DNA of 32,000 nucleotides from Acaryochloris marina MBIC11017 (GTDB lineage: Bacteria; Cyanobacteriota; Cyanobacteriia; Thermosynechococcales; Thermosynechococcaceae). The position numbers and the translations under genes were made by a program. Positions 9,836 through 26,350 of the stretch are shown here, one piece after another (position 1 is the stretch's first letter; each line of letters starts with the position of its first letter). Location of the stretch: the NCBI RefSeq assembly GCF_000018105.1, contig NC_009927.1, forward strand, positions 210,001 through 242,000. The letters are read 5' to 3'. The notes under the pieces are model-generated. The model was not told the origin of the DNA and did no database searches. It saw nothing but the letters and a program-made list of their open reading frames with translations.

Positions 9836-10729
9836 TTACCGACTTACGCCGCCATGGCCTAACAAGTCGTCATAGGTCTTCTGAGGTAAATGTGAATACT
9901 TCAATGCCTTTTCGACTGATGCCCCTCGTCTTAGGTATCGGGCCGCTGACTGAGCTTGCCAGTAGAGTTTGTGATTGCGGTTTATCTGTCGCAATCCTCT
10001 AGCCCGGTGCAATCCCCTAATCAGGTAATTGGCTAAGGCCTTGTTGTCCAACGTCGATCGGTCAATCAGGATCCGTCCCGTGGTTGAGACCTTGGCGACT
10101 CGCCGAACCAGCTTCGGAGATTGTCTAATCTGAACAGGCCTAGGGGCCTTAGCACTGGGATCTGATACCTTCACAGGAAAACTAGACCGGGGGCTGGAAG
10201 GCTTGGGGGGCTTAACCGAGAGAGTCACCGGCTTATTAATCGGTGCGTTTTCCTGGCCTGAATGAACGACTTCCAAGCGAGGGAACTGCTGAAACCCCTT
10301 ATTGACCGGTGGGGCAGTTGCCACTAAAGGCTGGGCTGGCCCCGCTGTGTACATGGTCAGGATGTTATCAGGGGCCTCGCCGACCCGAGTAATCCGGTAA
10401 CGCAGAGATTTAGTGCCCAATGGTCCCGAGACCTTCAACACCAAAGAGGCCGATTTTGCGGTACTGCCTTTCACCCATCGGAGGACTAGTTGATCTCTCT
10501 CTGCCTGAGAGGGAGCTAAGGCCCTGAACTCCGTATGGTCACTTGAACGGGCCTCTAGAACCGTGTAGCCGGTTTCACTGAGATCAAGAAAGTGATCCGT
10601 TTCCCCGGACACTTCTAGATTCTGTGCCTTATTAAAGGCCTCGCCGATCACCAAAGAGGCAGGGTTCGCTAGTCCGGGTAATGCGGTTAATGCCACTAGG
10701 CCTAAAGTCGATAATGTTGTTTTGAACAT
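9836..10729 (-). CDS. Secreted protein: signal peptide, beta-rich domain, Pro-rich linker and a basic helical C-terminal module
   Basis: 297 aa with signal peptide MFKTTLSTLGLVALTALPGLANP. The C-terminus ARYLRRGASVEKALKYSHLPQKTYDDLLGHGGVSR recurs twice upstream (12142.. and 12396..). Confidence 0.6.
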   Translation of the reverse strand: MFKTTLSTLGLVALTALPGLANPASLVIGEAFNKAQNLEVSGETDHFLDLSETGYTVLEARSSDHTEFRALAPSQAERDQLVLRWVKGSTAKSASLVLKVSGPLGTKSLRYRITRVGEAPDNILTMYTAGPAQPLVATAPPVNKGFQQFPRLEVVHSGQENAPINKPVTLSVKPPKPSSPRSSFPVKVSDPSAKAPRPVQIRQSPKLVRRVAKVSTTGRILIDRSTLDNKALANYLIRGLHRARGLRQINRNHKLYWQAQSAARYLRRGASVEKALKYSHLPQKTYDDLLGHGGVSR

Positions 10730-12158
10730 AGGTTGAGTACCTGTCTAATTTTTTGGATGGCTGGGAAGAACGGATCCGTCCTTCCTTTGTGGTTGGCCCT
10801 CTTACGCTGTCCCTTCGGAGGACATGAAAAAGCCCGGTGGCATAGTGTACGGCTCCCTTTAAGAAACCAAAGGCGAAGGGTAAAACCCCAGAAAAACCAG
10901 GCAGGGAAGAGAGGATCCGTTCTTCCTTGGTGGGGTCTGAAGTGGGCATATCTGCAGATCGGCCCTCGAAAACGGTCTCTAAATCCAGACCGAGACCTGG
11001 CCGATTTATGCCTGTTTCACTCTGCTTAAGCAGGGGGCAATCTACCAGAGCATCAACCATCGACTGAACCGGCGTAACAACGGCTTGAATGGCTCGACCA
11101 ATCCGACCGCCCAGCCGTACAGCATCCACACGAGGCAATATTGGAAAGACCCGTCTAACAACTACTTCAGGGATTGCCAGGACTTCGGGGGTCTCTACGC
11201 TGGTATCGCCTGCTAAGAATTCGTGGACAGTACTTTTGGCTTTTTTGATGAACTGACGGACTCTCTCAGGTCCTACACCGTGTCTTTCACCAATCTCCTT
11301 AGCGCTGTACCCTTCAATCCGACTGGTCACTGCATCAACATGCTTGGACTCTAGACGCCCGCTCTCTTCTAAGGCTTGAAGAATATCAGCCTGTTCTGTG
11401 GATAGAGCATAGGCCCAAGGATCGCAGCTGTGATCAACTAATGCGCTCTCATATTGGATGGTGGAATCTTCATCAATCAAGCCACTGAGGCTTAGGGATT
11501 GGGTAAAGTTCTTTGCCATCAGGGCATTTAAGACCGTTTGCACCGTTAAATTGCTTTGTTCTGCAATCTCTTCGACGCTGGGTTCCCGACCCAAGGCATT
11601 AGTCAAAAATGCTGCCGCCTCATTAACAGCGGATACATTACGGGACACTTCCCGACTGATGCCCGCTTCACTGCAATACCTCTTTTGAATCTCAGTCCGC
11701 AGAACCCAACTGAAATAGGTAATAAAACGATGTCCTTTGGACTCGTCGTACTTCTTTGCTGCAATGTCTACCGCCGCCTCACCAGAACAGACTAAGGCTT
11801 GACGGTCTATGCTCCGGTCATAACGCTGGGATGCAGTGACGATAAACCCTTTATATTCCTTGATTAACTGGCGTAATGCCCGAGGATTGCCGACTCTAAC
11901 TTTTTGGATTAGATCTAGTTCCTGATCGAAGGTTAATCGGCTATCTGATTTTGGTTCTTGCGTAAATCTGCCTATCATATCCATGAGCCTTGAATTGGTA
12001 GTAGGTTTGAGGCTTTCAGGCTTTGGCGGTGTCGAGATCGTCGAGGCCTGTTTTTGTTCGGTAGGTTCTTCCTTGATCTCCATTGAAGAAACATAGGCAG
12101 AATGGCCCTTAAGGTGCAAATTTGCCTTAATGGTGAGGGTTTCAGCGATCGACGACAC
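10632..12158 (-). CDS. Sigma-70 family RNA polymerase sigma factor with a roughly 190-aa C-terminal extension; start codon uncertain
   Basis: Region 2 reads YDESKGHRFITYFSWVLRTEIQKRY and region 4 HTH reads GYSAKEIGERHGVGPERVRQFIKKA. The extension contains RVDAVRLGGRIGRA (11091..11132) and a hydrophobic stretch LPGFSGVLPFAFGFLKGAV. The track start is GTG at 12158. Alternative ATGs at 11984 and 11978 (MDMIG...) match the MIG start of the paralog at 21600. The last 98 nt overlap the next gene. Confidence 0.8.
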   Translation of the reverse strand: MSSIAETLTIKANLHLKGHSAYVSSMEIKEEPTEQKQASTISTPPKPESLKPTTNSRLMDMIGRFTQEPKSDSRLTFDQELDLIQKVRVGNPRALRQLIKEYKGFIVTASQRYDRSIDRQALVCSGEAAVDIAAKKYDESKGHRFITYFSWVLRTEIQKRYCSEAGISREVSRNVSAVNEAAAFLTNALGREPSVEEIAEQSNLTVQTVLNALMAKNFTQSLSLSGLIDEDSTIQYESALVDHSCDPWAYALSTEQADILQALEESGRLESKHVDAVTSRIEGYSAKEIGERHGVGPERVRQFIKKAKSTVHEFLAGDTSVETPEVLAIPEVVVRRVFPILPRVDAVRLGGRIGRAIQAVVTPVQSMVDALVDCPLLKQSETGINRPGLGLDLETVFEGRSADMPTSDPTKEERILSSLPGFSGVLPFAFGFLKGAVHYATGLFHVLRRDSVRGPTTKEGRIRSSQPSKKLDRYSTYVQNNIIDFRPSGINRITRTSEPCLFGDRRGL

Positions 12159-12215
12159 CGTGATCTAGGAAGTCATCAAAGGTCTTTTGAGGCAGTCGGG
12201 ACCAGCGCAACAATT
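12096..12215. repeat. Direct repeat, copy A (partner 12350..12470)
   Basis: A 79-nt core, ggcagaatggcccttaaggtgcaaatttgccttaatggtgagggtttcagcgatcgacgacaccgtgatctaggaagtc, is 73/79 identical by my count to the copy 254 nt downstream. Similarity continues more weakly for about 40 nt (ggcagtcgggaccag[c/t]gcaaca). Confidence 0.85.
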
Positions 12216-12314
12216 TCTCAATGGATACGCCGCTTTTGAGGTGGCGGGATTGGCGAGGGCCGACGTGGATGTGATCGCCAACAGTCCCAGTGACATTAAT
12301 GTGGTTTTGATCAT
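12142..12314 (-). pseudogene. Internally deleted, frameshifted paralog of the 297-aa secreted protein
   Basis: ATG 12314 opens MIKTTLMSLGLLAITSTSALANPATS... (compare MFKTTLSTLGLVALTALPGLANPASL) and stops after 49 aa (TAG 12165..12167). A different frame encodes RHLKSGVSIEKLLRWSRLPQKTFDDFLDHGVVDR* (stop 12142..12144), homologous to the C-terminus of 9836..10729. That frame has no ATG. Confidence 0.5.
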
Positions 12315-12349
12315 TTTCTATGTGGCCGATGAGCTACATAGGAAGGGTA

Positions 12350-12470
12350 GGCAGAATGGCCCTTGAGGTGCAAATTTGCCTTAACGGTAGGGGTTTCAGC
12401 GATCGATGCCACCGTGATCTAGGAAGTCCTTCAATGTTGTTTTTGGCAGTCGGGACCAGTGCAACATTGT
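12350..12470. repeat. Direct repeat, copy B (partner 12096..12215)
   Basis: See copy A. This copy carries the 3' end of ORF 12396..12635 plus a truncated sigma-N-terminus-like 33-codon frame (GTG 12412 to TGA 12311). Confidence 0.85.
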
Positions 12471-12635
12471 TTCATCCTCATATCTTGCCAGGGTTAATGC
12501 CTGAGTCTTCCGCTCAATCCGCTCCACCAAGCCCTGCTTAAGGGCCTGTTTTGCTGCTCTAATTTGACTTTGCTTAAAAGGAGTAAATTTATCCAAAGAT
12601 TTGACAACCGTGAAGATAGTCCATTTCGATTTCAA
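12396..12635 (-). CDS. Small protein or gene remnant carrying the third copy of the C-terminal LPxxT..DHGG.xR module
   Basis: 79 codons with a TTG start and no in-frame upstream ATG. An in-frame stop lies at 12648..12650, exactly at the GC-to-AT compositional boundary. The C-terminus is ARYEDETMLHWSRLPKTTLKDFLDHGGIDR*. Confidence 0.35.
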   Translation of the reverse strand: MKSKWTIFTVVKSLDKFTPFKQSQIRAAKQALKQGLVERIERKTQALTLARYEDETMLHWSRLPKTTLKDFLDHGGIDR

Positions 12636-12724
12636 CTCTTTTATGAATTAAGAAAAAATAATCATTTCTAATAAAACAAACTGAGATTCAATAATAGGAT
12701 CAATGAGACATAAAAATTTATGCA

Positions 12725-13444
12725 ATGAATGGAATTATTACAGCACTAATAGGTGCTCTTATTGGTGGAGCAATAGGTTTTTATACATCACTTTACATGA
12801 AGTACTTAGAGAAAAAGGAATTTATTCTACGGAATTATATTAATCACTTAAAAATCGCTAATGAAGAATTATTTATCAGAATCAATGTATTGCTGAATCT
12901 GAGGCAAAGCAGAAAGCTAGAAATTATTGACATTTCTAGCTTCCAAGAATTAGAAGATAAAAATACTGAATGGTATAACGAAGAAGGTGCATTTTTTGGC
13001 ACCACAGCCTACTTTTTATGTTGGTTATTTTTTTCTATAGATCTTATAAAAAGAGAGATACCACATTTCAAGCTAAGGAAAGTCAAATCAAATATAGTAA
13101 TGAATTCTCTCTTTGATTTACAACATGTTTTTTTAAAAGATTTTGGAATATATTATGCCATTCAAATGAGCATAGGTCGTGAGATGGAAAACCCAGATGG
13201 ACGGGTAATTAGCTACAGACAATTTGTCGAGAAGCTCCAAGACTATAATTCACGAATATGGTTCAAACGCATAGTTTGTTTCATCCTTGATTTCAAAAAT
13301 GGAAACAGATTTAGGCAATTTCAAGAAATCTATAAATATTCCTATGAGTTAGCAAAAGTTCTTGACGCGATTACAGAATCTGAAGGAACACTTGATTCCA
13401 GGCTCTCAAAAGAATCATTGCCTTTATTTGGGACTAAATTTTAG
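12725..13444 (+). CDS. Hypothetical 2-TM protein in the AT-rich islet
   Basis: 239 aa with an ATG start. The N-terminal glycine-zipper TM is IITALIGALIGGAIGFYTSLY and the second hydrophobic helix is AFFGTTAYFLCWLFFSIDLI (about aa 88-108). The rest looks helical and Lys/Glu/Asn-rich. I recognised no family. Confidence 0.6.
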   Translation: MNGIITALIGALIGGAIGFYTSLYMKYLEKKEFILRNYINHLKIANEELFIRINVLLNLRQSRKLEIIDISSFQELEDKNTEWYNEEGAFFGTTAYFLCWLFFSIDLIKREIPHFKLRKVKSNIVMNSLFDLQHVFLKDFGIYYAIQMSIGREMENPDGRVISYRQFVEKLQDYNSRIWFKRIVCFILDFKNGNRFRQFQEIYKYSYELAKVLDAITESEGTLDSRLSKESLPLFGTKF

Positions 13445-13472
13445 GTTATTCGTATTGACATCTCTATTTCTA

Positions 13473-13712
13473 TCACCCCCAGATCCGAGCCACACTCTCT
13501 CGTCCCAGATACACTCCCACCATCTCCTCAATCCGCTCAATAGTTTCCCCTGGCCGCAGACTCAATACCTGCAACACATCAAACGTGTCCTCCAGTTCCA
13601 GCGCGCACTCAAAGCAGAACTCAGGACTTGCAAACGGAATTCTGATGAATGGCTTCCCAGTCCCTTCCACGGTAATCCAGTATTGCCCTGAATTGCTTCG
13701 GGAAACGGTCAA
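13473..13712 (-). CDS. Hypothetical ORF or remnant in a GC-normal spacer between the two AT-rich blocks
   Basis: 79 codons from a TTG start. The frame stays open upstream to 13787 but contains no ATG. No family was recognised. Confidence 0.2.
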   Translation of the reverse strand: MTVSRSNSGQYWITVEGTGKPFIRIPFASPEFCFECALELEDTFDVLQVLSLRPGETIERIEEMVGVYLGRESVARIWG

Positions 13713-13852
13713 GTACTCAAGCTGGCCCTCTAGCTTGATTGGCTGGATAAGATTCTGTTGACTGCGCTCAAGGCGTAGAATTTGGACTCAAAGGCTCTGG
13801 ATACTCTGGGATGTCGGGCTCTGCTTGTAGTTTGCCGAGCTGAAAAAGCTCA

Positions 13853-13911
13853 TTTCTGTTGACTGGAGCTGTTAAAATTGTTGCAATACTAACAGCTCCA
13901 GTCAACAGAAA
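13853..13911. repeat. Perfect 22-bp inverted repeat with a 15-nt spacer
   Basis: The left arm tttctgttgactggagctgtta (13853..13874) and right arm taacagctccagtcaacagaaa (13890..13911) are exact reverse complements. It lies 67 nt downstream of the stop of 13978..15708. On the minus strand a T5 run begins 6 nt after the stem. Confidence 0.9.
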
Positions 13912-13977
13912 ACGATGGTTTATTTTGCCGTAGAAATATAAACCAAAATCTCCTAATTTTAATCCATACCAACATCT

Positions 13978-15708
13978 TCAGGAATCAGCTCTGATATCTT
14001 TTAAATCTATTTGAATTTTTTCAAGTAAGAGTTTTTGATCAATAAACTTATCTAGGCCATAAGGCAAAGTTGGTCCAAAATGTCCTAAATCTGGAATAGA
14101 ATAACCTCGGAATGTAGACATAAGAATAACTTCACTATATGAAAAACTAAGTGAATCATCTACATAGGAAGGGCTTCTCGAAAATAGTTCTTTATATAAA
14201 TCTCTCGTAAATATTTTTTTAACCCCTATTTCCTTAGAATCTAGTAACAGGTCTTCTAGCAGGCGAATAGCATTTTTTTCTACAAGGCAAATTTTGCGCT
14301 CTGTGAGTTCTTCTACAGAAATGCCCCAGCGTTCTGATATTTCGCTAGCTGAGTAGCAACTCCTGTAATTCCATTCACGTTTAGCTGAATAATATTCAGC
14401 ATAGAGCGAGTAAAATAATGCGCTGGCATAAAGCTCAACACGTTTGAGAGAAGTAATTTCCTCTTCAACTTCTTGAAGTATGGGCGGTAACTCTTCAATA
14501 TCAATAACAACTAAATTTTCCTTTTTCCCTAACAATAAAGAAAATTTAGACTTATTTTTAATCAAATAATCTACAAGATCTTCAGGAATTTCAACAGTAA
14601 CTTTTACACTGCCTTCTTCTACATCTTCTATAGAAATCTTTTTGACATCCACTCCCAAAAAACCAGCAAGGGTATACTTGAGTTTCTCATCACATTGCAA
14701 TTCTAAGAATTTTTCTAACTCTAGATCAAGAGTTATCCTAACTTTTTTTTTCATGGATTGATTTGATGCTAGATTCTCTATGTTTGCTGAGCTTGTTAAT
14801 TGGAAGATGGAACCCAAGATCCCTGTCTTAATCAGGGAATAAGTAAATGCTGCCGCAGCATTACACGCATACTCTGTCCATTCAGAACTACGCTTATAAC
14901 CTACAATATCACTCAAAGACCGTATAGCAAGGACAGGATATATTCGTTCTCCCCTCCAAGCTGCTCTATAAACTCCACCTAGCTCCATTTCTACGTTTGA
15001 AACAGAACGAGCACAATCTTGCCACTGCTGAATAATATCAATATTTTTCACGAGAAAGTTACTACTAGCTGTAGGAGCTACTCGATAGATTGGTTGACGT
15101 TTTGTCGATGTATCACAAAAATGATGTCTAATTGATTCATGAACTTTTTCTTTCCATTCAAGATCACCATAGTATGCATTATCGTTAATATCTTCCGGAA
15201 CATTAACAACAGGCATCTCTTGAGAAATAGAGGTTACTGAATTCCATTCTCCAAGTTGATTCTTGTATGCTGATATAACTTCAAGAATCCTACTGACACT
15301 AGGGTGTATCGGCCCTCCACTAGTATTATTTTCTATAGATCTATCTGGATTTATTGCAGAAACAGAGAAGTCATAAAGGCGACTTGCCAGAATTATGTCA
15401 CCCAAAGTGTATTCTATTGCTGGAACACCCCCCGCGATACCCACTAAAACTAGTAATTTTGGCTTTATATCTTCAATCAGATCATTTGTAATCTGTTGCG
15501 CTGCACCCTGACCTTGCTCTAGGCAGCGAGTAAGGACAATACTATATTCACATCCACCAGGAGTAGAGACCTGGCTAAAAATATATATATGTCTACCTCC
15601 AGCTACACCAGTCCAGGATTCAAATCGACAGAGAACTGCATCAAACTCTTCTTGCTTAATTGTAATAATGGCAAAATCAACATTGTTCTTAATAGATTCA
15701 ATCTTCAT
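13978..15708 (-). CDS. PNP/MTAN-fold nucleosidase domain, small adaptor-like module and a sigma-70 region-4-like HTH C-terminal region
   Basis: 576 aa with an ATG start. Phosphorylase-superfamily landmarks occur in order: DFAIITIKQEEF, LLVLVGIAGG, SNVEMELGGVY, LAIRSLSD. The middle segment is VRITLDLELEKFLE...EEGSVKVTVEIPEDLVDYL. The C-terminal YSASEISERWGISVEELTE is 9/19 identical to region 4 of the neighbouring sigma factor (YSAKEIGERHGVGPERVRQ). Confidence 0.65.
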   Translation of the reverse strand: MKIESIKNNVDFAIITIKQEEFDAVLCRFESWTGVAGGRHIYIFSQVSTPGGCEYSIVLTRCLEQGQGAAQQITNDLIEDIKPKLLVLVGIAGGVPAIEYTLGDIILASRLYDFSVSAINPDRSIENNTSGGPIHPSVSRILEVISAYKNQLGEWNSVTSISQEMPVVNVPEDINDNAYYGDLEWKEKVHESIRHHFCDTSTKRQPIYRVAPTASSNFLVKNIDIIQQWQDCARSVSNVEMELGGVYRAAWRGERIYPVLAIRSLSDIVGYKRSSEWTEYACNAAAAFTYSLIKTGILGSIFQLTSSANIENLASNQSMKKKVRITLDLELEKFLELQCDEKLKYTLAGFLGVDVKKISIEDVEEGSVKVTVEIPEDLVDYLIKNKSKFSLLLGKKENLVVIDIEELPPILQEVEEEITSLKRVELYASALFYSLYAEYYSAKREWNYRSCYSASEISERWGISVEELTERKICLVEKNAIRLLEDLLLDSKEIGVKKIFTRDLYKELFSRSPSYVDDSLSFSYSEVILMSTFRGYSIPDLGHFGPTLPYGLDKFIDQKLLLEKIQIDLKDIRADS

Positions 15709-16060
15709 AAATTACTGTAACCATCAAGCTTAAGGTTTGCCCAATTTTGATTTAATTTATCTCAGCCTAAAAAATCAAAATGGGATCATTGAAGCATTAT
15801 TTCCTGATAGAGATCATACAGCTTATTGTGACTGACAAACTCTGATATTTCACTTCAAACCGCAGACAAAGCTATTTAAAAGACAAAAAATGGATTCGAA
15901 CAAGTATCTGTAGATCTATCTTTTAGTTAACACCCAAAAACATAAATAGTACTGCCAAGGTACAAGCGATCTAGCCTCTAAACATATAAGCTAGAGGTCA
16001 ATTCAAATAAGCACAGAATTAAAAATTGAACTTTAAATCAAGGTCAAATACATCGGATTT

Positions 16061-19000
16061 TCAACCCGTTTTCTCGGTAGAGTCCAAAGGGGAACCATCA
16101 TCACCCCCCTCAAGCTGCCCGAGTTCCTGATCATTTCCCTGACCAAATCCATCAATTTCAGATCGCTTATCAATTTCTGTAATTAGATCGTCCTCTTTCT
16201 TACAGATTTCACAACTTGGTCTATTTTTCTCCAATCTCTGATTCCATTTCGCCTGAAATGCCTTCAGCATCTGGTCTTTGTACGCTTCATTACCTGAATA
16301 GCGAATCACATACAGACTCACGGATTCCTCACTGCCCACCTTCACCAGCTCATGGGCCACTCTCTTGATTAACTTGTTGACGATGGCAACGGCACTCTGC
16401 CCTTCACTGATGACATTCCTGAAGTGGCGATAGATTTGATAGCGATATTCCAACGCCTTCACCTTAATATCTTCCAACCGCTGATCATCCTCCGTCATCA
16501 CCATGATTTCCATCCGCATCCGGGCCTCCACCTGCTCATATCGGGCCTGGGTAAACGCCTGAGACTGCTGCTCAATGGCCTCCACCAAACCCTGCTTCTG
16601 ACCCTTGAGGGTCTGCTTCTGCTGTTCCAACTGCTCCAGTTCCCCCTTCAGCGTTGCCTTCCTGGGATGGGCCTTTCTGCCTAACGCCGTCAATTTGGCT
16701 TGAATGACCTTCTGCTCCTGAATGATTTCCCTGATCTGCCCAGCTAATCCCTTGACTTCCAATCTCAAAGACTGTCGTTGACGCTGCACCTGGCGACCCT
16801 TTTCCAACGCTTTGTCGTAGGCTTCATAATCAGCGCTGGTGACATTGTAGGTATCCACTAAATCAAATACCCCCAAGTCACGAAGTAACTGTACCTGGAT
16901 GCGATTATTGGTTAACCGATGAGTCAACACGAACTGACTATTGAGCTGTTTCATAAAATTCCTCCGGTCTAATTCCTCAGCAACTTCAGGGTGAAAGCTC
17001 ATCCAATGCAACTTTGTGGCACTCTTGAGCCGTCCTCGATGCTCGACACAGACTTGATGAATGAATTCATCCGTGAGGTCCACACCAGGCAATTCATCTT
17101 GCAGCAAGACCTTCTTGGCATCCAACGTATCTTTATAGGTGGCAGAAGAACTCCCCATCACTCGGATGGCCTGCTCCACCGTGAACCGTTCCCCATCAGC
17201 CGTTCCCAGCATCACGGCTGTCTCTCGCTCCATCTGCTTCCGCACTTTACTGAAGGACTCGACGATATCGGCATTGCGCTCTCTCAGCTCCTCCATCTCA
17301 ATCGAATGTCCATGATCTTTCAACAACAGCATCAAGGACTCTCTGAGGGCTAACAGTGACGCAATGGAGCGGGTCTGATACCGAGCAAAGCTGACGTTGT
17401 GACAGTTATTGGGATTCTGCTGATATGCCTTCAGTGCTGCTAACTGCTGAGCCGTTTCCGGGGATTGGTCATGAATGAGCTGCTGTTCTAAATCAATGGA
17501 GGCCGCAACGTCTTGTCCATACTTGGACTGAAGCATGATGACCTGTTCCACGGACTTAATCGAAGGGATATCTGGGATATGGGCCTTCCTCGTCACATAG
17601 ATTTCACGAGTGACTTTTGCTCTGTATCTCCAGAGCTGCTGATAGACACTGCGGGCATGGTTGGATGAGGCATAGCAGAACACTCGACTGAAATAGGGAA
17701 TCAATCGGGGTTCATCAATACTGACCCCACTCTCGGCTGTAGGGCTGAGGAATAGTGCCGTGGGTCGATAGTCTTCGACAAACTGAGTGGGATTGGCCTG
17801 AAAGGTTTTGTTCTCTGGTCGTTCTGAGGTCTTCCTGTCATGGCGCAAAATGCCCTTGGCAAACTCAGGGTTCATTTCTGCGATGATTCGCTCAAGCTTC
17901 TCTAGGAATTCTTGCGATGTGGCGACGACAATAAACTTTTCATCAGCAGCTACGGCATTTAGGATTCTCTCTAGAAACTGAGAGGTCTGTCCTGAGAACA
18001 CCTTCGTGGGAAAGTTATCGTCAGGCTTATATTCATTGACGATAATCTTAGTGTTGTACTTCCCGCCTGTGATGCCCTTGATATAGTCAATGGGAATTTG
18101 AGACAGGGAATCTTCCAAGAGAATGATATTGCCTTGGGTTTCTAAGACCCGGTTTGCGATCGCATGGAAATGCTCCAAGATCTGATTCTGCCGATCCCCC
18201 AAGGTTTGACCACTGAGGACATGGAATAAAGCAGCATCGGCTTCATCGAGGATGATGCAGCTATCAGGTTCAATATCATCAAGTTCTATCTTGAGTAGGC
18301 TATCGAAGCAAAGGAGAATAGACCGTTCAGACCGAAAGCCCATGCTGATATTGCCCTGGTATTCCTTATTGAGTCGGAATAGGTGAATCAGCTTGTAGAG
18401 GGTATTGCCGTTGGCGTCAGTCTCGGTGAATCGGTCCTCGGTATTAAACAGCAGGTTATTCCGGTAACCGGGCATAATCACCTGGCCCTTGACCTGGCCC
18501 ACCAGGGACTTCAGCATCTCCGTCTTGCCAGTGCCACACATGGAAGCAATGGCGACCACTGACCCCGGATCAATGGTGCCTAGATCTGAGAGTTCGATGT
18601 AGCGCTTGTTGATAACCGTTGTGGCTTTATCCGATAGACCATTGAGCTTTAGAAAGAGCTGACCCAACTCATATTCCAGACCCAAGCTATTGAAAAACCA
18701 AGTGGGCTTGAATACGATTTGGGCCAATTCCACTTGAGTGAGTTCATCGATATCGCAGGAATTCTCCTTGTAGGTCTGCCCCCACCAGGCCACTTCCACG
18801 GCATAGCCCCATTCTTCTAGTAAGCGAATGACTCGCTGATATTGGTGAAAGACATTGAGGTTCCGCACGGCACCCGCATCAGGATAGAGGGTGATGATCG
18901 GGGTCTGTTCAGCAGATTTCGATAAGACGGTCAGAGTTTCTCGTAAGGTTTCAGGCGATGAGGCCCAGAGTCCCCCCGCTGCGCCAATCGTGGGGAGCTG

Positions 19001-20334: not shown

Positions 20335-21600
20335 TTAAGGAGTAATATTCGGCGGTCGCGGGTGTACTATTAGGTGTTTCATCCCAAGGAATTTAAAGAT
20401 ATTAGTTGCCATAGAATGCATCGTTGATCTCCTTGTATGGGTTATATAGTTTTCCTGAAATCCTCTGATAGCCAGATATACGAGCGCTAATGGCAGCAGA
20501 AATACACTTAGAATTTCTTGGCCGATTTCCAGATATCCTCCCCAAGCGTCTTGAATGCCTCCCAATCCACAGCATCGCTGATTCGTTGAGGAAGGTTGAT
20601 ACCCCGATTTAGGAGCAATCCTGTGATTGCTACACCGACAAAAAGCCAAAATAGGTTTCGCAACATTAGCTAGTCCTCCTAATTGACAGTTAAATTCCTC
20701 CTTTGTAGAGTTGAAAATCTGATTGAGGGCACGGCCAATCTTTCCACCTAGCCGTGGAGCATCAACACGTTTCATGACAGGTTTCTTAACTTCTTCGGGT
20801 TCTTTGGCTTGAAGTGGCTGAGGGAATCGAACCAAGCAAGCGCCGTAAGTGACTAGGTGTTTTAGATAGGCGAGGGCTTCTTTAAATAGCTGCCTGATCC
20901 TTTCACCTGAAAGGCCAAACATTCTTCCAATCGCACGATAACTGTGCCCATCCCTCCTGGCCCGAACGATTACGTTATATCGCTCGGGGAGCTGTGCTAT
21001 ATATTCCTTTTCGTCGATATTTTCCGCGTAATCCCACAGATCATCGTCACCCTCAACAAGATCAATCTGCTCTGCCTTAAGATTTTCGCCAACAGGGATA
21101 TTTAGACTGGAGGTTTCAACCACTCTCGCTCTGTCCAAAGTGCTGGTAATGATTCGCTGGGAATATCCAGTTCGCTCTGAAAGTTCTTCTAGTGTTGGCT
21201 GACGCTCTAATTCCCACTCCAGTTTTTGTGATGCTTGCTTAATATCTTTTAAGTGTTTAGCAATTTCCTTGGATAGTCCCCGCTGATCGTTAAGAAACTG
21301 CTGAATTTCAGTTCTTATGACTTTCACAGCGTAACTGCTGAACTTGCAGCCCTTAGAAACGTCAAACTTTTCAATAGCGCGGGCTAAGCCCCAGTTCCCG
21401 GCAGTAACTAAATCGTTCCAGTCATCTAGTCCGCGATACCGATTTGCTTCCTTGAAGACCAATCGCTGATTCTTTCGTATAAAACGGTCTTCAGTCCTTC
21501 TATCCCCAGCCTGAGCGAGTAGAATCTGAGGGTACTGGACCTCGTTGCTAAACTGTTCGGATCTTTGGGTTTGTGGGTTGCGTGAAGTAGTGCCTATCAT
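20335..21600 (-). CDS. Sigma-70 family sigma factor (paralog of 10632..12158) with a roughly 170-aa C-terminal extension
   Basis: 421 aa. Region 2 reads FDVSKGCKFSSYAVKVIRTEIQQFL and region 4 reads GHSYRAIGRMFGLSGERIRQLFKEALAYL. The extension has RVDAPRLGGKIGRA (20728..20769) and a TM-like EILSVFLLPLALVYLAIRGF (aa 362-380). Confidence 0.8.
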   Translation of the reverse strand: MIGTTSRNPQTQRSEQFSNEVQYPQILLAQAGDRRTEDRFIRKNQRLVFKEANRYRGLDDWNDLVTAGNWGLARAIEKFDVSKGCKFSSYAVKVIRTEIQQFLNDQRGLSKEIAKHLKDIKQASQKLEWELERQPTLEELSERTGYSQRIITSTLDRARVVETSSLNIPVGENLKAEQIDLVEGDDDLWDYAENIDEKEYIAQLPERYNVIVRARRDGHSYRAIGRMFGLSGERIRQLFKEALAYLKHLVTYGACLVRFPQPLQAKEPEEVKKPVMKRVDAPRLGGKIGRALNQIFNSTKEEFNCQLGGLANVAKPILAFCRCSNHRIAPKSGYQPSSTNQRCCGLGGIQDAWGGYLEIGQEILSVFLLPLALVYLAIRGFQENYITHTRRSTMHSMATNIFKFLGMKHLIVHPRPPNITP

Positions 21601-23273: not shown

Positions 23274-24638
23274 ATGGAATTTGAAAAAGCTAAAAGCTAT
23301 ATTAACGAGCTATCCCTCATTAAATGGGGAAAGAAGTTGGGTTTACCCGGTGAGATTGCTATTCAAGCAGCTTGGGAAGGTATTACGATTGCTCAAGCTA
23401 TTAAGGATCACCCGTTAGGCGCATCAACGAGTGAAGGATATGTTTCTTGTCGAGTGGGGCCAGACCTTTGGAAACTACTATCTCAAGAACTGGGTATAGA
23501 GGTAAAAAAGAAGAACTTACGTCTCGTCTTTGAAGAACTAGATCAGCAGGGTATGTTTGCCACTACCACTAGCGATCCCACTCCAGAACAAGAAGGCACT
23601 AAAAAAACTTCACAGCAAATAGATAACACAACATCTATAACAACTGCCCTAGGTCACCACCCCCCAAAAGTCCCTCACTTTTACGGGAGAGATGAAGACT
23701 TTCTACAACTGTCTACCACACTAGCCCAGAACCGTTTTGTAGCCTTAATTGGTGCTGCAGGAATTGGTAAGAGCGCGTTGGCCTCTATCTACGTGCAGCG
23801 CATGAACTCAAAACCTCAACCTGATTTTAAGAAAATCATATGGATGTCGCTGCATCACGGACAGACAGTTAGTGGGCTAATGGAGTTTCACTTCAAGGAG
23901 TGTGAATTTACAGCTTTGATTCAAGAACTTAGCTGTCTATTTGTAATTGACTGTGGCCCTGTAGAGTTTGAGGAGGATAAAAATTTTCAGGCTATAGCTC
24001 AGCAATTCTGTGTTGGAAGACATCAAAGCACTCTGTTGATTCTTAGCCGCAACACTGTGAGATCTGTTCAACAATTAGCCAGAATTCAAAGACCAGCAGC
24101 AACAATCAAACTAAGTGGATTACCCGATAAAGATGCACTCCGAATTCTTAAGGAACAAGGGATTCAAGGTGAATCGGATTGCAAGAAATTAATCAAATCC
24201 TATCGGGGAAATCCTCAGCTCCTTCTACTAGCAGCAGAACGTATCAATCGATTTTGTGGTGGCAAGCTTGTTGAGTCCTTTATGCTGCATAAAACATCAT
24301 TTGCCAGTGATTATGTCAGACGAGTGATTCAGGAATACAGAATGCAAGAACTGACACCGACTGAACAAAGAATACTAGATATATTGATCCAGTCAGACAA
24401 TGATGCTCCCAGGTGGATTACGTTTAGTGAATTAATGATGGAACTATCTTCTGGTGGGGGTAATGCTTCAATGTCAGAGTTGATTGAAGTTTTAGAGAAG
24501 TGGGAAGGAATGTCATTGATTGAATCTGACAACGACCAGAACACTGGAGAAGCAACGTTTATGCTTCCCCCGACCACTCGCAAGGTACTCATGCGGAATA
24601 CTCTGAACAGCCTTGTTTCATTTTCGCAGCCTGCATGA
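23274..24638 (+). CDS. STAND (NB-ARC-like) P-loop NTPase with an N-terminal HTH-like domain and no C-terminal repeat sensor
   Basis: 454 aa. The N-terminus AAWEGITIAQAIKDHPLGASTSEGYVSCRVGPDLWKLLSQELGIEVKKKNLRLVFEEL matches a domain I recall at the N-termini of cyanobacterial NACHT/WD40 proteins. FYGRDEDF precedes Walker A LIGAAGIGKSALA, and Walker B is CLFVIDCGP. The stop overlaps the next start (ATGA). Confidence 0.65.
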   Translation: MEFEKAKSYINELSLIKWGKKLGLPGEIAIQAAWEGITIAQAIKDHPLGASTSEGYVSCRVGPDLWKLLSQELGIEVKKKNLRLVFEELDQQGMFATTTSDPTPEQEGTKKTSQQIDNTTSITTALGHHPPKVPHFYGRDEDFLQLSTTLAQNRFVALIGAAGIGKSALASIYVQRMNSKPQPDFKKIIWMSLHHGQTVSGLMEFHFKECEFTALIQELSCLFVIDCGPVEFEEDKNFQAIAQQFCVGRHQSTLLILSRNTVRSVQQLARIQRPAATIKLSGLPDKDALRILKEQGIQGESDCKKLIKSYRGNPQLLLLAAERINRFCGGKLVESFMLHKTSFASDYVRRVIQEYRMQELTPTEQRILDILIQSDNDAPRWITFSELMMELSSGGGNASMSELIEVLEKWEGMSLIESDNDQNTGEATFMLPPTTRKVLMRNTLNSLVSFSQPA

Positions 24639-26350
24639 TGAAATTTTGTATTAGCCCATGGTGTTCTCAGAGACAAAATCCAGACGAGGCCGAGATTTGT
24701 CAATCCTGCGGAACACCCCTGCTAATTAATGATCGGATTCGGTTGATTCGTCCTTTGCGGGAATTAGTGGATTTGATCCCCTCAGAGGTCTTTGAGGTAG
24801 AGGATATAACCGGGTCGTATGCAATTCCTCCTGGCCGACGAGTTCTCAAAACCCTGAGAACAGTGGATGCTAAACGAGTCGAAATGATGGAGCGGGAAGT
24901 CAGGGCGCTTCAGATGCTCAATCATCCAGGGATTCCAAAAGCGGACCTGGGTGATTTTTTTGAGTTTCAACCAAATTCGGGGTTCCCTTTGTACTGCATC
25001 CTGATGACCAAGCTAGAGGGTCAAGATCTGGATAAGTGGATTGAAGAGAATGGACGCATCTCTCAAGAAAAAGCCTTAGATTGGCTGAAGCAATTGTTTG
25101 AGCTGCTGCATGAGGTCCATGATTGCGGCTTCTTTCATCGGGACATCAAGCCATCGAATATCCTTCTCAAAGAAGATGGAACACTCGCTCTGATTGATTT
25201 TGGTGGTGTAAGAGAAGTCACAGATACCTACCTTGCTAAGCTTTCTGGAACCGGTGAACCCACTGGTTTTGACAAAGAGCATGAAATCACAATCGTACGC
25301 ACTCCAATGTTTTCGCCGCCTGAACAGGTTAATGGTCGGGCTATCCCTCAATCAGACTTCTATGCAGTCGGTCGTACCTTTGTAGTGCTGGTGACTGGAC
25401 TAGATTTATTCGATATCCCTCTAGATGACGATAACAAAAAATTGCTTTGGAGGAAGAAGGCACCTCATATCGATCCACCTCTGGCTGATTTTCTGGATAA
25501 GTTAATGAGTCTATCGCCTAAGCAACGGCCAAAAACAACGGGCGATATTTTAGATCAGCTCAATCAACTTCCCAAACGCATCCGTTGGCATCGTCGCGTT
25601 AAATCAGTACCATTTCGACTTAGCGCAATACTACTAACCATTCTGGTTGTAGTTGGCTTGTTTCAAGGTGGCAAGATCGGTCTTTCTAGATATTTTTTTA
25701 GAATGGCGGGTGAGAGTGAAGGGAGAAATGATTTAGAGGCCGCCAAACAAAACTATAAACTCGCCGTTCAATTTGATCCAGGTGATTATGCAGCCTACAA
25801 CAACTTGGCGGCAGTCTGTCAACTATTGAAAAAATACCCCTGTGCGATTGAAAATTACAAAAAAGCCCTCCAACTTAAACCGAATAATGAAGTCGTTTTT
25901 TATAACATAGCGAGTATTTATGATGATGCTCAAGACTTCACGGAGGCGCGTTTCTATTATCAGAAATCAATTGAGGCTAGCCAGGGAAAATTTGTCGCTG
26001 CTATTAACAACGTGGCAAGGTTAGATATTCTAGACGATCAACCACGAAAAGCTGTAAAAAGTATTTCTCCAGCACTCAAAAAAGTCGAGAATATTCGGAC
26101 TAAAGCATCCTTGTACAAAAACCTAGGATGGGCATATTTCCAACTGGAACAATATAAGAAATCCGTCGTCAACTTAGAAAAAAGCGTTGAAATAGAGGCA
26201 AATGAAGCCAGCACCCAATGTCTACTCGCTAAAGCTAAGAACCAATTGAATTTGCCATCTAAATCGAATTTACAATTGTGCTTGTTCTTAAGTTCTGAAT
26301 TACCAGAAGTTTGGACATGGAAACAGGAATTTGTTGATCGACTGGAATGA
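24635..26350 (+). CDS. Zn-ribbon, Hanks-type Ser/Thr protein kinase, TM helix and TPR-repeat protein
   Basis: 571 aa. The Zn-ribbon is CISPWCSQ...CQSCGTPL. Kinase motifs are RVLKTL (Lys), HRDIKPSNILL, IDFGGV and SPPEQ. The TM helix is FRLSAILLTILVVVGLF. TPR-like repeats follow (AYNNLAAVCQLLKKYPCAIENYKKALQLKPNN...). Confidence 0.8.
   Translation: MMKFCISPWCSQRQNPDEAEICQSCGTPLLINDRIRLIRPLRELVDLIPSEVFEVEDITGSYAIPPGRRVLKTLRTVDAKRVEMMEREVRALQMLNHPGIPKADLGDFFEFQPNSGFPLYCILMTKLEGQDLDKWIEENGRISQEKALDWLKQLFELLHEVHDCGFFHRDIKPSNILLKEDGTLALIDFGGVREVTDTYLAKLSGTGEPTGFDKEHEITIVRTPMFSPPEQVNGRAIPQSDFYAVGRTFVVLVTGLDLFDIPLDDDNKKLLWRKKAPHIDPPLADFLDKLMSLSPKQRPKTTGDILDQLNQLPKRIRWHRRVKSVPFRLSAILLTILVVVGLFQGGKIGLSRYFFRMAGESEGRNDLEAAKQNYKLAVQFDPGDYAAYNNLAAVCQLLKKYPCAIENYKKALQLKPNNEVVFYNIASIYDDAQDFTEARFYYQKSIEASQGKFVAAINNVARLDILDDQPRKAVKSISPALKKVENIRTKASLYKNLGWAYFQLEQYKKSVVNLEKSVEIEANEASTQCLLAKAKNQLNLPSKSNLQLCLFLSSELPEVWTWKQEFVDRLE

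What the first reader, a model, noticed from the sequence alone, without database searches (positions are those of the whole stretch)
13978..15708. Nucleosidase (PNP/MTAN-fold) effector fused to a sigma region-4-like HTH; candidate novel conflict or addiction protein
- **aa 1 to about 300:** phosphorylase-superfamily landmarks in the canonical order. These are DFAIITIKQEEF (first strand), LLVLVGIAGG (glycine loop), SNVEMELGGVY (the xME substrate-binding segment) and LAIRSLSD (the position of the catalytic Asp in MTAN-type nucleosidases; D267 by my count).
- **aa about 322-385:** VRITLDLELEKFLE...VEEGSVKVTVEIPEDLVDYL looks like a small alpha/beta adaptor module. I recall this type from cyanobacterial STAND, CHAT and TIR proteins but am not sure of its name.
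- **aa about 415-487 (14248..14466):** resembles sigma-70 region 4. YSASEISERWGISVEELTE is 9/19 identical to YSAKEIGERHGVGPERVRQ of the sigma factor encoded 2 kb away.

PNP-fold domains are established nucleotide- and ATP-nucleosidase effectors in phage defence (Detocs DtcC and CBASS Cap17-type, from memory). They also serve as effector domains of NLR-like proteins. I know of no described PNP plus sigma-region-4 fusion.

Hypothesis: the sigma4-like domain acts as a decoy or sensor. It could bind RNAP, an anti-sigma-type partner, or -35-like DNA, and gate a nucleotide-depleting effector.
Basis: partly seen in the sequence, partly recalled or inferred. Interest (0 to 1): 0.8.

Follow-up and report, generated by a model that had tools for sequence, protein, structure and literature searches.

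The report
Catalogued PNPase–TRADD-N–HTH conflict protein
This plasmid gene of the cyanobacterium Acaryochloris marina encodes a predicted "suicide/immune" enzyme: a nucleotide-cleaving head, a TRADD-N adaptor and a small DNA-binding-like tail. The exact protein and its three-part architecture were already listed in a 2021 survey, so it is real but not new.

Summary
The 576-aa ORF at 13978..15708 (-) is real. Residues 1-300 are a confident MTAN-fold nucleosidase. Pfam PNP_UDP_1 is above its cutoff, AF2 pLDDT is 90-97, and Foldseek top hits are all MTAN (E~1e-13). The catalytic equivalents E21, E240-M-E242 and D267 are conserved.

The tail (aa 409-576) is nearly an orphan, with one relative in ~1.8 billion representatives. 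It contains a probable helix-turn-helix.

Its likeness to sigma region 4 is limited to a 19-residue HTH core. There is no Pfam hit at E<=10, pairwise E is 0.097, and no fold match was found.

This exact protein (WP_012167159.1) is listed as "PNPase+TRADD-N+HTH" in Kaur et al. 2021 (eLife 10:e70394), so the claim of an undescribed fusion fails.

The best reading is a single-chain conflict protein. A C-terminal sensor acts through TRADD-N to switch on a nucleotide (probably ATP) nucleosidase of the Cap17/DtcC kind. It sits in a low-GC islet beside the replication gene of a conjugative megaplasmid. Function is untested experimentally. The sigma-4 decoy idea is unsupported but not excluded.

The parts
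13978..15708 (-). Whole gene, 576 aa plus stop. It equals WP_012167159.1 (AM10699_RS28865 / AM1_RS31580) and has the architecture PNPase-TRADD-N-HTH.
   Evidence: ORF. 100% identity to P0001 and to plasmid pREC1 NZ_AP026076.1. Literature listing.
14809..15708 (-). aa 1-300: PNP/MTAN-fold nucleosidase domain, the predicted effector.
   Evidence: Pfam PF01048 31.3 bits against a cutoff of 25.1. PADLOC PDC-M60C and CBASS PN effector models. AF2 pLDDT 90-97. Foldseek hits to MTAN at E~1e-13. PDB profile hits are all MTAN.
15646..15648 (-). E21 codon, equivalent to MTAN Glu12 (water-activating residue).
   Evidence: Aligns with the last E of the MTAN 'MEEE' motif. Invariant in A1 and at least 90% conserved in A3. 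PDB 1z5n is the Glu12Gln mutant.
14983..14991 (-). E240-M241-E242, equivalent to the MTAN E-M-E ribose/purine-binding segment.
   Evidence: Aligned with MTAN 'VEME'. Invariant in A1.
14908..14913 (-). S266-D267, equivalent to the MTAN catalytic Asp197 in the 'SD' motif.
   Evidence: Aligned with MTAN 'RA(L/M)SD'. Invariant in A1. PDB 1z5o is the Asp197Asn mutant.
14488..14751 (-). aa 320-407: bacterial TRADD-N adaptor domain (KKKVRITLDLEL...NLVVIDIEEL).
   Evidence: The target itself scores Pfam TRADD-like_N E=0.043. An exhaustive phmmer search finds 7 relatives of this segment, of which P0125 (27.3 bits) and P0128 (24.6 bits) pass the 23.7-bit cutoff. This segment of this protein is in the published TRADD-N alignment. 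AF2 gives beta-alpha-alpha-beta-beta-alpha-alpha at pLDDT 63-75.
13981..14484 (-). aa 409-576: near-orphan C-terminal module, the predicted sensor or regulatory part.
   Evidence: No Pfam or PADLOC hit. Nothing in the word-index, profile, plasmid, genome or metagenome searches except P0127. AF2 is low confidence.
14089..14352 (-). aa 453-540: core shared with the only relative, P0127, a standalone 134-aa protein next to an AAA_16 ATPase.
   Evidence: phmmer E=5.4e-4 against 1.84e9 proteins. Pairwise BLASTP E=7e-14, 33% identity over 89 aa. Context.
14242..14358 (-). aa 451-489: probable helix-turn-helix (CYSASEISERWGISVEELTERKICLVEKNAIRLLEDLLL).
   Evidence: Predicted as strand-helix-turn-helix-long helix in both AF2 runs, with pLDDT ~80 for aa 450-469 in the C-terminal-only run. 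Weak match to the r4 HTH core. Labelled 'HTH' by Kaur et al..

Best explanation
The gene encodes a single-polypeptide member of the bacterial TRADD-N class of predicted counter-invader / programmed-growth-arrest proteins.

**Shown:**
- The N-terminal 300 aa are an MTAN-fold N-glycosidase with an intact catalytic set (E21, E240-M-E242, D267). The domain belongs to the group of PNP domains found fused to NLR/STAND, caspase/CHAT, TIR and Death-like modules.
- aa 320-407 are a TRADD-N adaptor domain.
- aa 409-576 are a rare module containing a likely helix-turn-helix.
- The gene lies alone in a 36-37% GC islet, against ~50% in the flanks, directly downstream of the CyRepA1 replication gene of a conjugative Acaryochloris megaplasmid that also carries other conflict genes.

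**Inferred:**
- The C-terminal module is the input. It would bind a nucleic acid or protein cue from an invader, or from disturbed plasmid or cell state.
- The TRADD-N domain passes this on by homotypic association or conformational change.
- That change assembles or unlocks the PNP domains. By analogy with Cap17, DtcC and fungal/sponge immune PNP domains, these then hydrolyse the N-glycosidic bond of ATP/dATP (or a related adenine nucleotide), depleting the pool and arresting the cell before the invader spreads.
For: - PNP domain.
- Catalytic residues conserved.
- Not a housekeeping MTAN: 31.9 bits against the 169-bit equivalog cutoff.
- Relatives of the PNP domain carry conflict-system partners such as NB-ARC, CHAT, caspase+bDLD3, TIR, EAD7, iSTAND and Roc-COR.
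- TRADD-N domain. Its relatives are fused to TIR, HNH and ECF sigma modules.
- Published description of the class: a variable N-terminal effector including PNPase, a central TRADD-N, and a variable C-terminal domain including an HTH. This very protein is listed.
- Immune PNP domains are ATP/dATP nucleosidases, including N-terminal PNP domains of NLR-like proteins of about the same length, residues 2-308 (Rousset et al. 2023).
- Low-GC islet and plasmid context.
- Neighbouring PD-T4-6-like kinase, STAND ATPase and CHAT protein.
- The only relative of the tail is also in a foreign low-GC two-gene islet, paired with an AAA_16 ATPase.
Against: - No bacterial TRADD-N protein appears to have been tested experimentally; the literature search found only citations.
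- Substrate specificity (ATP versus NAD, AMP or MTA) cannot be read from sequence, and no tree was built to place this domain inside the Cap17/DtcC clade.
- The target's own Pfam TRADD-like_N score is below the cutoff (14.1 against 23.7 bits), so that assignment rests on transitive hits and on the published alignment.
- The tail could not be modelled (pLDDT below 50 in the full-length run), so its sensor role is an inference from position only.
- No partner gene is evident. The downstream ORF is a pseudogene remnant.
- Defence against phage versus plasmid addiction versus some other role cannot be distinguished.
Confidence: 0.65

Rival explanations
1. One reading: the tail is a sigma-70 region-4 mimic. 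It would bind the RNAP beta-flap, an anti-sigma-type factor (for example a phage sigma appropriator) or -35-like DNA, and thereby gate the nucleosidase as a decoy or guard.
For: - A 19-aa HTH core resembles the r4.2 segment of the sigma factor 2 kb away: 9/19 identical, BLASTP E=0.097.
- An r4 HMM built without that neighbour still gives 5.9 bits, reached by 5 of 2000 shuffles.
- TRADD-N domains closely related to this one are fused to genuine ECF sigma r2+r4 (P0128) or to r2 (P0124, P0126).
- Kaur et al. note ECF-HTH/TRADD-N combinations.
- Two sigma genes lie on the same plasmid segment.
Against: - No Sigma70_r4, r4_2 or ECF Pfam hit at E<=10.
- Single-sequence r4 models from the other two sigma factors are not significant: 142 and 235 of 2000 shuffles reach the observed score.
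- The match covers only the generic HTH core, not r4.1.
- P0127, the only homolog, does not score.
- Foldseek of the tail finds nothing at E<1, and the noise is mostly MarR-type winged HTH rather than sigma-4.
- Kaur et al. used the generic 'HTH' label although 'ECF-HTH' was available in the same table.
Confidence: 0.05
2. The protein is one component of a larger multi-gene system together with the STAND-like ATPase, the PD-T4-6-like kinase-TPR protein and the CHAT-TPR protein 7-14 kb away. TRADD-N would act as the bridge that recruits the nucleosidase to that NTPase/caspase machinery.
For: - Kaur et al. report that some TRADD-N proteins are encoded next to AP-ATPase-TPR or EACC2-caspase genes.
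- Their neighbourhood string for this protein includes the TPR+caspase and kinase genes.
- Those genes are present in the window.
Against: - The genes are separated from the target by the plasmid replication gene and a sigma gene, and lie on the other strand.
- They have a different GC content: the target islet is 36-37%.
- No shared adaptor domain was found between the target's C-terminal half and the STAND N-terminus; the best BLASTP E is 2.3.
Confidence: 0.12
3. It is a plasmid addiction or maintenance module, or a transcription regulator. The HTH would bind plasmid DNA near the origin or rep gene, and the nucleosidase would kill or arrest cells that lose or mis-replicate the plasmid, or would serve as a ligand-sensing domain.
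For: - The gene lies immediately downstream of the CyRepA1 gene on a conjugative megaplasmid.
- The tail has a probable HTH.
- It is a solo gene without a recognisable partner.
Against: - No antitoxin-like partner is present.
- The catalytic residues are intact, which argues against a purely sensory PNP domain.
- The same PNP clade is overwhelmingly fused to immune-type modules.
- The locus is not conserved on other Acaryochloris plasmids in PLSDB.
Confidence: 0.12
4. It is an ordinary MTA/SAH nucleosidase for salvage, as the NCBI family name suggests.
For: - The NCBI name is 'MTAN family protein'.
- The closest solved structures are MTANs.
Against: - It scores 31.9 bits against the 169-bit equivalog cutoff.
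- Identity to MTAN structures is 12-17%.
- It carries 276 extra residues with TRADD-N and HTH modules.
- It lies in a plasmid low-GC islet, and its relatives have conflict-type fusions.
Confidence: 0.03

Closest known systems
Bacterial TRADD-N proteins (Kaur, Iyer, Burroughs & Aravind 2021, eLife 10:e70394), e.g. Gemmata sp. SH-PL17 AMV23994 (PNPase-TRADD-N-caspase-bDLD3), which is P0028 here
   Same: Same three-part plan: a variable N-terminal effector, a central TRADD-N and a variable C-terminal domain. The PNPase is of the same type: P0028 is 38% identical over 64% of the query, including the TRADD-N segment. The target itself is listed in that paper as PNPase+TRADD-N+HTH.
   Different: The C-terminal module is an almost unique HTH-containing domain rather than a caspase/Death-like domain, STAND, TPR or pentapeptide repeats. 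The class is a computational prediction with no experimental test found.
Immune ATP nucleosidases: CBASS Cap17, Detocs DtcC, and fungal NLRN / sponge DDAN PNP domains (Rousset et al. 2023, bioRxiv 10.1101/2023.01.24.525353; published in Cell by my recollection)
   Same: A PNP_UDP_1-fold effector attached to immune-type sensor or adaptor domains. It matches the PADLOC CBASS 'PN-superfamily effector' model at E=1.1e-13. An N-terminal PNP domain of ~300 aa is also seen in fungal NLRN, residues 2-308.
   Different: Activation here would be through TRADD-N and an HTH tail rather than cyclic oligonucleotide binding (Cap17), phosphotransfer (DtcC) or an NLR NTPase. ATP specificity and clade membership were not tested here.
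Housekeeping MTA/SAH nucleosidase (MTAN/Pfs; e.g. PDB 1jys, 4qez, 6ayq)
   Same: Same fold (Foldseek E~1e-13, TM ~0.78) and the same catalytic Glu / E-M-E / Ser-Asp motifs.
   Different: Only 12-17% identity. It fails the NCBIfam equivalog cutoff (31.9 against 169 bits). It has about 70 extra residues within the domain and a 276-aa extension. Its context is a plasmid conflict region, not salvage.
TRADD-N-ECF sigma fusions (P0128, P0126, P0124 here; 'ECF-HTH+TRADD-N+pentapeptide' in Kaur et al.)
   Same: A closely related TRADD-N module (37-44% identity) joined to an HTH-bearing domain.
   Different: Those proteins have bona fide Sigma70_r2/r4 Pfam matches; P0128 scores r4_2 at E=5.7e-18. The target's tail has none. 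Those proteins also lack an enzymatic effector, or carry HNH instead.

Membership tests
Phosphorylase superfamily (PNP_UDP_1, PF01048), MTAN-like branch | Profile match above the curated threshold | tested here: met
   31.3 bits against a cutoff of 25.1, aa 37-278. The family profile hits 15 MTAN PDB sequences, best E=3.1e-9.
Phosphorylase superfamily (PNP_UDP_1, PF01048), MTAN-like branch | Alpha/beta PNP fold | tested here: met
   AF2 pLDDT 90-97 for aa 1-300. Foldseek PDB top hits are MTAN or futalosine hydrolase, E 2e-13, TM(target) 0.74-0.79.
Phosphorylase superfamily (PNP_UDP_1, PF01048), MTAN-like branch | Catalytic residues equivalent to E. coli MTAN Glu12, Glu174 (E-M-E) and Asp197 | tested here: met
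   E21, E240-M241-E242 and S266-D267 align to those motifs and are invariant or at least 90% conserved in relatives.
Housekeeping MTA/SAH nucleosidase (NCBIfam NF004079 equivalog) | Score at or above the equivalog cutoff (169 bits) | tested here: not met
   31.9 bits.
Immune ATP nucleosidase clade (Cap17/DtcC-like PNP) | Sequence similarity to defence-system PNP effector models | tested here: met
   PADLOC PDLC00759 'Effector PN-superfamily' E=1.1e-13, and PDC-M60C E=7.9e-21.
Immune ATP nucleosidase clade (Cap17/DtcC-like PNP) | Placement inside the defensive clade of the PNP tree | not tested
   No phylogeny was built. There is only indirect support from the conflict-type fusion partners of the 175 relatives.
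Immune ATP nucleosidase clade (Cap17/DtcC-like PNP) | Cleaves ATP/dATP to adenine plus (deoxy)ribose-5'-triphosphate; toxic when expressed alone | not testable with these tools
   Requires biochemistry, using the assays described in Rousset et al..
Bacterial TRADD-N proteins (Kaur et al. 2021) | A TRADD-N domain is present | tested here: met
   The target alone is sub-threshold (E=0.043, 14.1 against 23.7 bits). phmmer relatives of aa 319-409 (E 6e-10 to 5.8e-4) include P0125 and P0128 above the cutoff, and 6 of 7 show the family. This segment of this protein is in the authors' TRADD-N alignment.
Bacterial TRADD-N proteins (Kaur et al. 2021) | TRADD-N lies between a variable N-terminal effector/EAD and a variable C-terminal domain | tested here: met
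   PNPase (aa 1-300) - TRADD-N (aa 320-407) - HTH-containing tail (aa 409-576). This matches the text and the table entry.
Bacterial TRADD-N proteins (Kaur et al. 2021) | TRADD-N alpha/beta fold | tested here: inconclusive
   AF2 gives beta-alpha-alpha-beta-beta-alpha-alpha at pLDDT 63-75. No separate fold search of this segment was possible because the prediction jobs were exhausted.
Sigma-70 region 4 (PF04545 / PF08281) | Profile match | tested here: not met
   No hit at E<=10 in Pfam. The two real sigma factors in the window and P0128 do hit.
Sigma-70 region 4 (PF04545 / PF08281) | Similarity extending over r4.1 and r4.2 to known sigma factors | tested here: inconclusive
   BLASTP E=0.097 and 0.29 against the two window sigma factors. 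The ad hoc r4 HMM gives 12.2 bits with the neighbour sigma included and 5.9 bits without it (5 of 2000 shuffles). Only the 19-aa HTH core aligns.
Sigma-70 region 4 (PF04545 / PF08281) | Sigma-4 fold | tested here: inconclusive
   The tail model has mean pLDDT 55 or below 50. Foldseek finds nothing at E<1, and one sigma-containing complex appears only at E=9.1.
Generic helix-turn-helix domain | Helix-turn-helix with a recognition helix | tested here: inconclusive
   Predicted H454-461 / turn / H465-489 in both AF2 runs, with pLDDT ~80 locally in one. There is a weak HTH-core profile signal. Kaur et al. label it 'HTH'. No significant profile or fold match was found here.

The most novel reading that the evidence does not exclude
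The near-orphan C-terminal module (aa 409-576) could be a sigma-region-4-like decoy. It would guard the RNA polymerase / sigma interface by binding a phage or plasmid anti-sigma or sigma-appropriating factor (or the beta-flap), and it would release an ATP-depleting nucleosidase through TRADD-N. That would be a new trigger logic for bacterial immunity. The same module, in standalone form, pairs with an AAA_16 ATPase in an unrelated GC-rich bacterium.
Probability: 0.04. Interest if true: 0.8.

Novelty: already known. Interest (0 to 1): 0.22.

Why it matters
As a discovery it matters little. The protein, its domain order and the predicted role of each kind of domain are already published, and the biochemical activity of related immune PNP domains (ATP/dATP nucleosidase) is established.

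Its remaining value is as a test case. It is compact, single-gene and plasmid-borne. Bacterial TRADD-N proteins are proposed to be evolutionary precursors of an animal apoptosis adaptor, and I found no experimental test of them. This protein has a readily assayable effector and a small, almost unique input domain, so it would be a convenient construct for asking how TRADD-N couples sensing to effector activation.

Tried and rejected
- **Homolog searches for the tail.** The word-index search with aa 300-576 found nothing. The profile search with the tail plus P0127 returned only P0127. tblastn against 72,556 plasmids returned only the gene itself. Pattern scans of GTDB genomes and JGI metagenomes found nothing.
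- **Structure of the tail.** The AF2 prediction had mean pLDDT 55, and Foldseek against the PDB found nothing at E<1. The full-length model did not improve it.
- **EAD-type pairing.** The target's C-terminal half shows no similarity to the N-terminus of the window's STAND ATPase.
- **P0127's ATPase partner.** It is related to the window's STAND ATPase only at the Walker A motif. The tail has no similarity to that ATPase.
- **Internal duplication of the tail (two HTH units).** Not supported, E=0.19.
- **Downstream 79-aa ORF as an operon partner or antitoxin.** Rejected. It is the C-terminal remnant of a 236-aa gene that is intact on plasmid pMB08, and the region upstream of it carries a frameshift and a stop codon.
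- **Promoter and terminator scan around the gene.** Counts were at chance level.
- **tRNA and Rfam scans of the window.** Empty.
- **Flanking repeats that would mark an insertion.** Nothing convincing bounds the islet.
Full report
**1. The observation**

The window holds a 576-codon ORF at 13978..15708 on the minus strand with an ATG start. The stated nucleotide range for aa 415-487 (14248-14466) is also correct.

The gene has 36% G+C and sits in a 37% G+C islet (about 12200-16060). The flanking genes have about 50% G+C.

The window is 100% identical over the region queried (window 12000-16100) to plasmid pREC1 (NZ_AP026076.1, 393,608 bp) of Acaryochloris marina MBIC10699. That plasmid is typed as conjugative, MOBF / MPF_T. 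There the gene is AM10699_RS28865 / WP_012167159.1, annotated 'hypothetical protein'. It lies directly downstream of a 'plasmid replication protein, CyRepA1 family' gene.

**2. The N-terminal domain**

- Pfam PNP_UDP_1 matches aa 37-278 at 31.3 bits, above the 25.1-bit cutoff.
- A profile of 30 relatives finds only MTA/SAH nucleosidases among all PDB sequences, with a best E of 3e-9.
- An AlphaFold2 model built on that alignment has pLDDT 90-97 across aa 1-300.
- The best Foldseek matches are all MTAN or futalosine hydrolase, with E about 1e-13 and TM 0.74-0.79.
- In the HMMER alignments, E21 falls on the last Glu of the MTAN 'MEEE' motif, which is E. coli Glu12. E240-M241-E242 falls on 'EME', and S266-D267 falls on the 'SD' motif containing Asp197. 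The Glu12Gln and Asp197Asn mutant structures appear in the hit list.
- These residues are invariant or at least 90% conserved in relatives.

It is not a housekeeping MTAN. It scores 31.9 bits against an NCBIfam equivalog whose cutoff is 169. It scores better against defence-system models: PADLOC PDC-M60C at E=7.9e-21, and the CBASS 'Effector PN-superfamily' at E=1.1e-13.

A search of 5.8 billion protein clusters gave 175 hits at up to E=6e-84. Most of the 120 listed cover only about half of the query, which is the PNP domain, and none covers more than 68%. Their other domains are NB-ARC, AAA_16, CHAT, caspase+bDLD3, TIR, WD40, TPR, protein kinase, Roc-COR, FGE-sulfatase, EAD7 and iSTAND.

**3. 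The middle module**

The target gives a weak Pfam TRADD-like_N hit (E=0.043, aa 347-376).

An exhaustive phmmer search with aa 300-576 against 1.84 billion representatives found seven proteins matching aa ~319-409, with E from 6e-10 to 5.8e-4. Six of the seven show TRADD-like_N, and two pass the Pfam cutoff: P0125 at 27.3 bits and P0128 at 24.6 bits against 23.7.

Their other domains are TIR+CSD, HNH+TIR, HNH+Sigma70_r2, and a complete ECF sigma factor with r2 and r4.

AF2 models the segment as beta-alpha-alpha-beta-beta-alpha-alpha at pLDDT 63-75.

**4. What the literature already says**

Kaur, Iyer, Burroughs and Aravind (eLife 2021;10:e70394) describe bacterial TRADD-N proteins. In these, the domain lies between a variable N-terminal effector and a variable C-terminal region. 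The effector list explicitly includes PNPase, TIR, HNH, caspase, an ECF-like HTH or EADs. The C-terminal list includes repeats, STAND, caspase, PAS, GUN4, bDLD3 or a DNA-binding HTH.

Their founding example is the Gemmata SH-PL17 protein with the architecture PNPase-TRADD-N-caspase-bDLD3. It is my hit P0028.

Their Figure 3 source data lists WP_012167159.1, 576 aa, Acaryochloris marina, with the architecture 'PNPase+TRADD-N+HTH'. The neighbourhood string matches this window. Their TRADD-N alignment contains KKKVRITLDLEL...NLVVIDIEEL of this protein. 'PNPase+TRADD-N' occurs 26 times in that table.

I found no experimental study of a bacterial TRADD-N protein.

**5. The C-terminal tail and the sigma-4 claim**

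The tail (aa 409-576) has no Pfam or PADLOC match. It has one relative anywhere, P0127. The evidence for that relationship is phmmer E=5.4e-4 against 1.84e9 sequences and pairwise BLASTP E=7e-14 with 33% identity over 89 aa, covering aa 453-540. Further word-index, profile, plasmid, genome and metagenome searches added nothing.

P0127 is a standalone 134-aa protein. Its gene ends 4 bp before a 440-aa AAA_16 ATPase gene. The pair forms a 43-47% G+C islet wedged between leuA and pyrF in a ~70% G+C genome. So the module again occurs in horizontally acquired DNA, next to a STAND-like NTPase.

Tests of the sigma claim gave the following results.
- There is no Sigma70_r4, r4_2 or ECF hit even at E<=10. 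The two sigma factors in the window, and P0128, do hit these models.
Against the other sigma factor E is 0.29.
- A small r4 HMM built from three real r4 segments gives 12.2 bits, with 0 of 1000 shuffles reaching it. That profile contains the sequence chosen for its resemblance, so it is biased.
- Leaving that sequence out gives 5.9 bits, reached by 5 of 2000 shuffles. Single-sequence models from the other two sigma factors are not significant. Only the 19-residue HTH core aligns, and P0127 does not score.
- AF2 predicts strand-helix-turn-helix-long helix at aa 451-489 in both runs, with local pLDDT ~80 in one. Overall confidence is low, with a mean of 55 in one run and below 50 in the other.
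- Foldseek finds nothing at E<1. The noise is mostly MarR-type winged HTH proteins.

I conclude that an HTH is likely, in agreement with Kaur et al.'s generic 'HTH' label, but assignment to sigma region 4 is not established.

**6. Context**

- The 79-aa ORF downstream (13473-13712) is not a partner. It is the C-terminal remnant of a 236-aa gene that is intact on Acaryochloris sp. 'Moss Beach' plasmid pMB08. The region upstream of it in this window carries a frameshift and a stop codon.
- The other ORFs of the islet have no family matches.
- Seven to fourteen kb away, beyond the replication gene and a sigma gene, lie three conflict-type genes: a STAND-like ATPase, an overlapping kinase-TPR gene that matches the antiphage PD-T4-6 models (E=1.9e-84), and a CHAT-TPR gene. 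I found no domain-level link between them and the target.

**7. Mechanism**

Shown:
- a catalytically intact MTAN-fold domain of the conflict-associated kind;
- a TRADD-N adaptor;
- a rare HTH-containing tail;
- a solo gene in a foreign-looking islet on a conjugative plasmid.

Inferred:
- The inference follows the published logic for TRADD-N proteins and the demonstrated ATP/dATP nucleosidase activity of Cap17, DtcC and eukaryotic NLR- or Death-linked PNP domains.
- The tail senses a cue.
- TRADD-N transmits it by association or conformational change.
- The nucleosidase then depletes adenine nucleotides and arrests the cell.

I put 0.65 on this overall reading. Much of the remaining probability goes to its being part of a larger system, or to a plasmid-maintenance role. 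I put about 0.05 on the sigma-4 decoy model.

**8. Verdict**

However, the protein and its architecture are already in the literature, and the specific novel element, a sigma-4 fusion acting as a decoy, is not supported. Interest is low. The residual interest is that the class is experimentally untested and that the tail is a near-orphan module.

Noticed in passing
window 23274-24638 (+) and 24635-26350 (+): A 454-aa STAND-like ATPase (weak nSTAND1/NB-ARC hits) overlaps by 4 nt a Ser/Thr kinase-TPR gene. The kinase domain matches the PADLOC antiphage PD-T4-6 models very strongly (E=1.9e-84). This is probably a two-gene defence unit on the plasmid.
   Followed up: partly
window 27285-29678 (-): A TPR + CHAT (caspase-like) protein, CHAT E=7.8e-51. 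It is another conflict-type gene on the same plasmid segment.
   Followed up: no
window 13473-13880 (-): The annotated 79-aa ORF (13473-13712) is the C-terminal remnant of a 236-aa gene that is intact on Acaryochloris sp. 'Moss Beach' plasmid pMB08 (79% identity over 99 aa). Further upstream the homology continues in another frame with an in-frame stop, so this is a decayed gene. On pMB08 the intact copy lies near a TIR-domain gene and a SUMF1/FGS gene.
   Followed up: partly
window 13853-13911: A 28-nt inverted repeat (93% complementary, 3-nt loop) lies 67 nt downstream of the target's stop codon, followed on the minus strand by a second small GAGCT...AGCTC hairpin. It may be a terminator or a regulatory hairpin for the target gene.
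   Followed up: no
window 12094-12220 and 12348-12474: A 127-nt direct repeat (86% identity, 254 nt apart) spans the 5' end of the sigma-factor ORF and the start of the low-GC islet. Its meaning is unknown.
   Followed up: no
L002 4925-6655 (JGI metagenome contig Ga0316160_131309): The only relative of the target's tail (P0127, 134 aa) and an adjacent 440-aa AAA_16 ATPase form a 43-47% GC two-gene islet between leuA and pyrF in a ~70% GC genome. This is an obvious horizontally acquired cassette of unknown function.
   Followed up: partly
window 10632-12158 (-) and 20335-21600 (-): Two plasmid-borne sigma-70 family genes have long C-terminal extensions (~170-200 aa) without any Pfam match. The first shows regions 3 and 4 but no region 2 hit at E<=0.01.
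   Followed up: no
window 12200-16060: A low-GC islet (37% against ~50% in the flanking rep and sigma genes) contains the target plus orphan ORFs. One is a 239-aa protein with an N-terminal hydrophobic helix (12725-13444, +). None of these has a Pfam or PADLOC match.
   Followed up: partly
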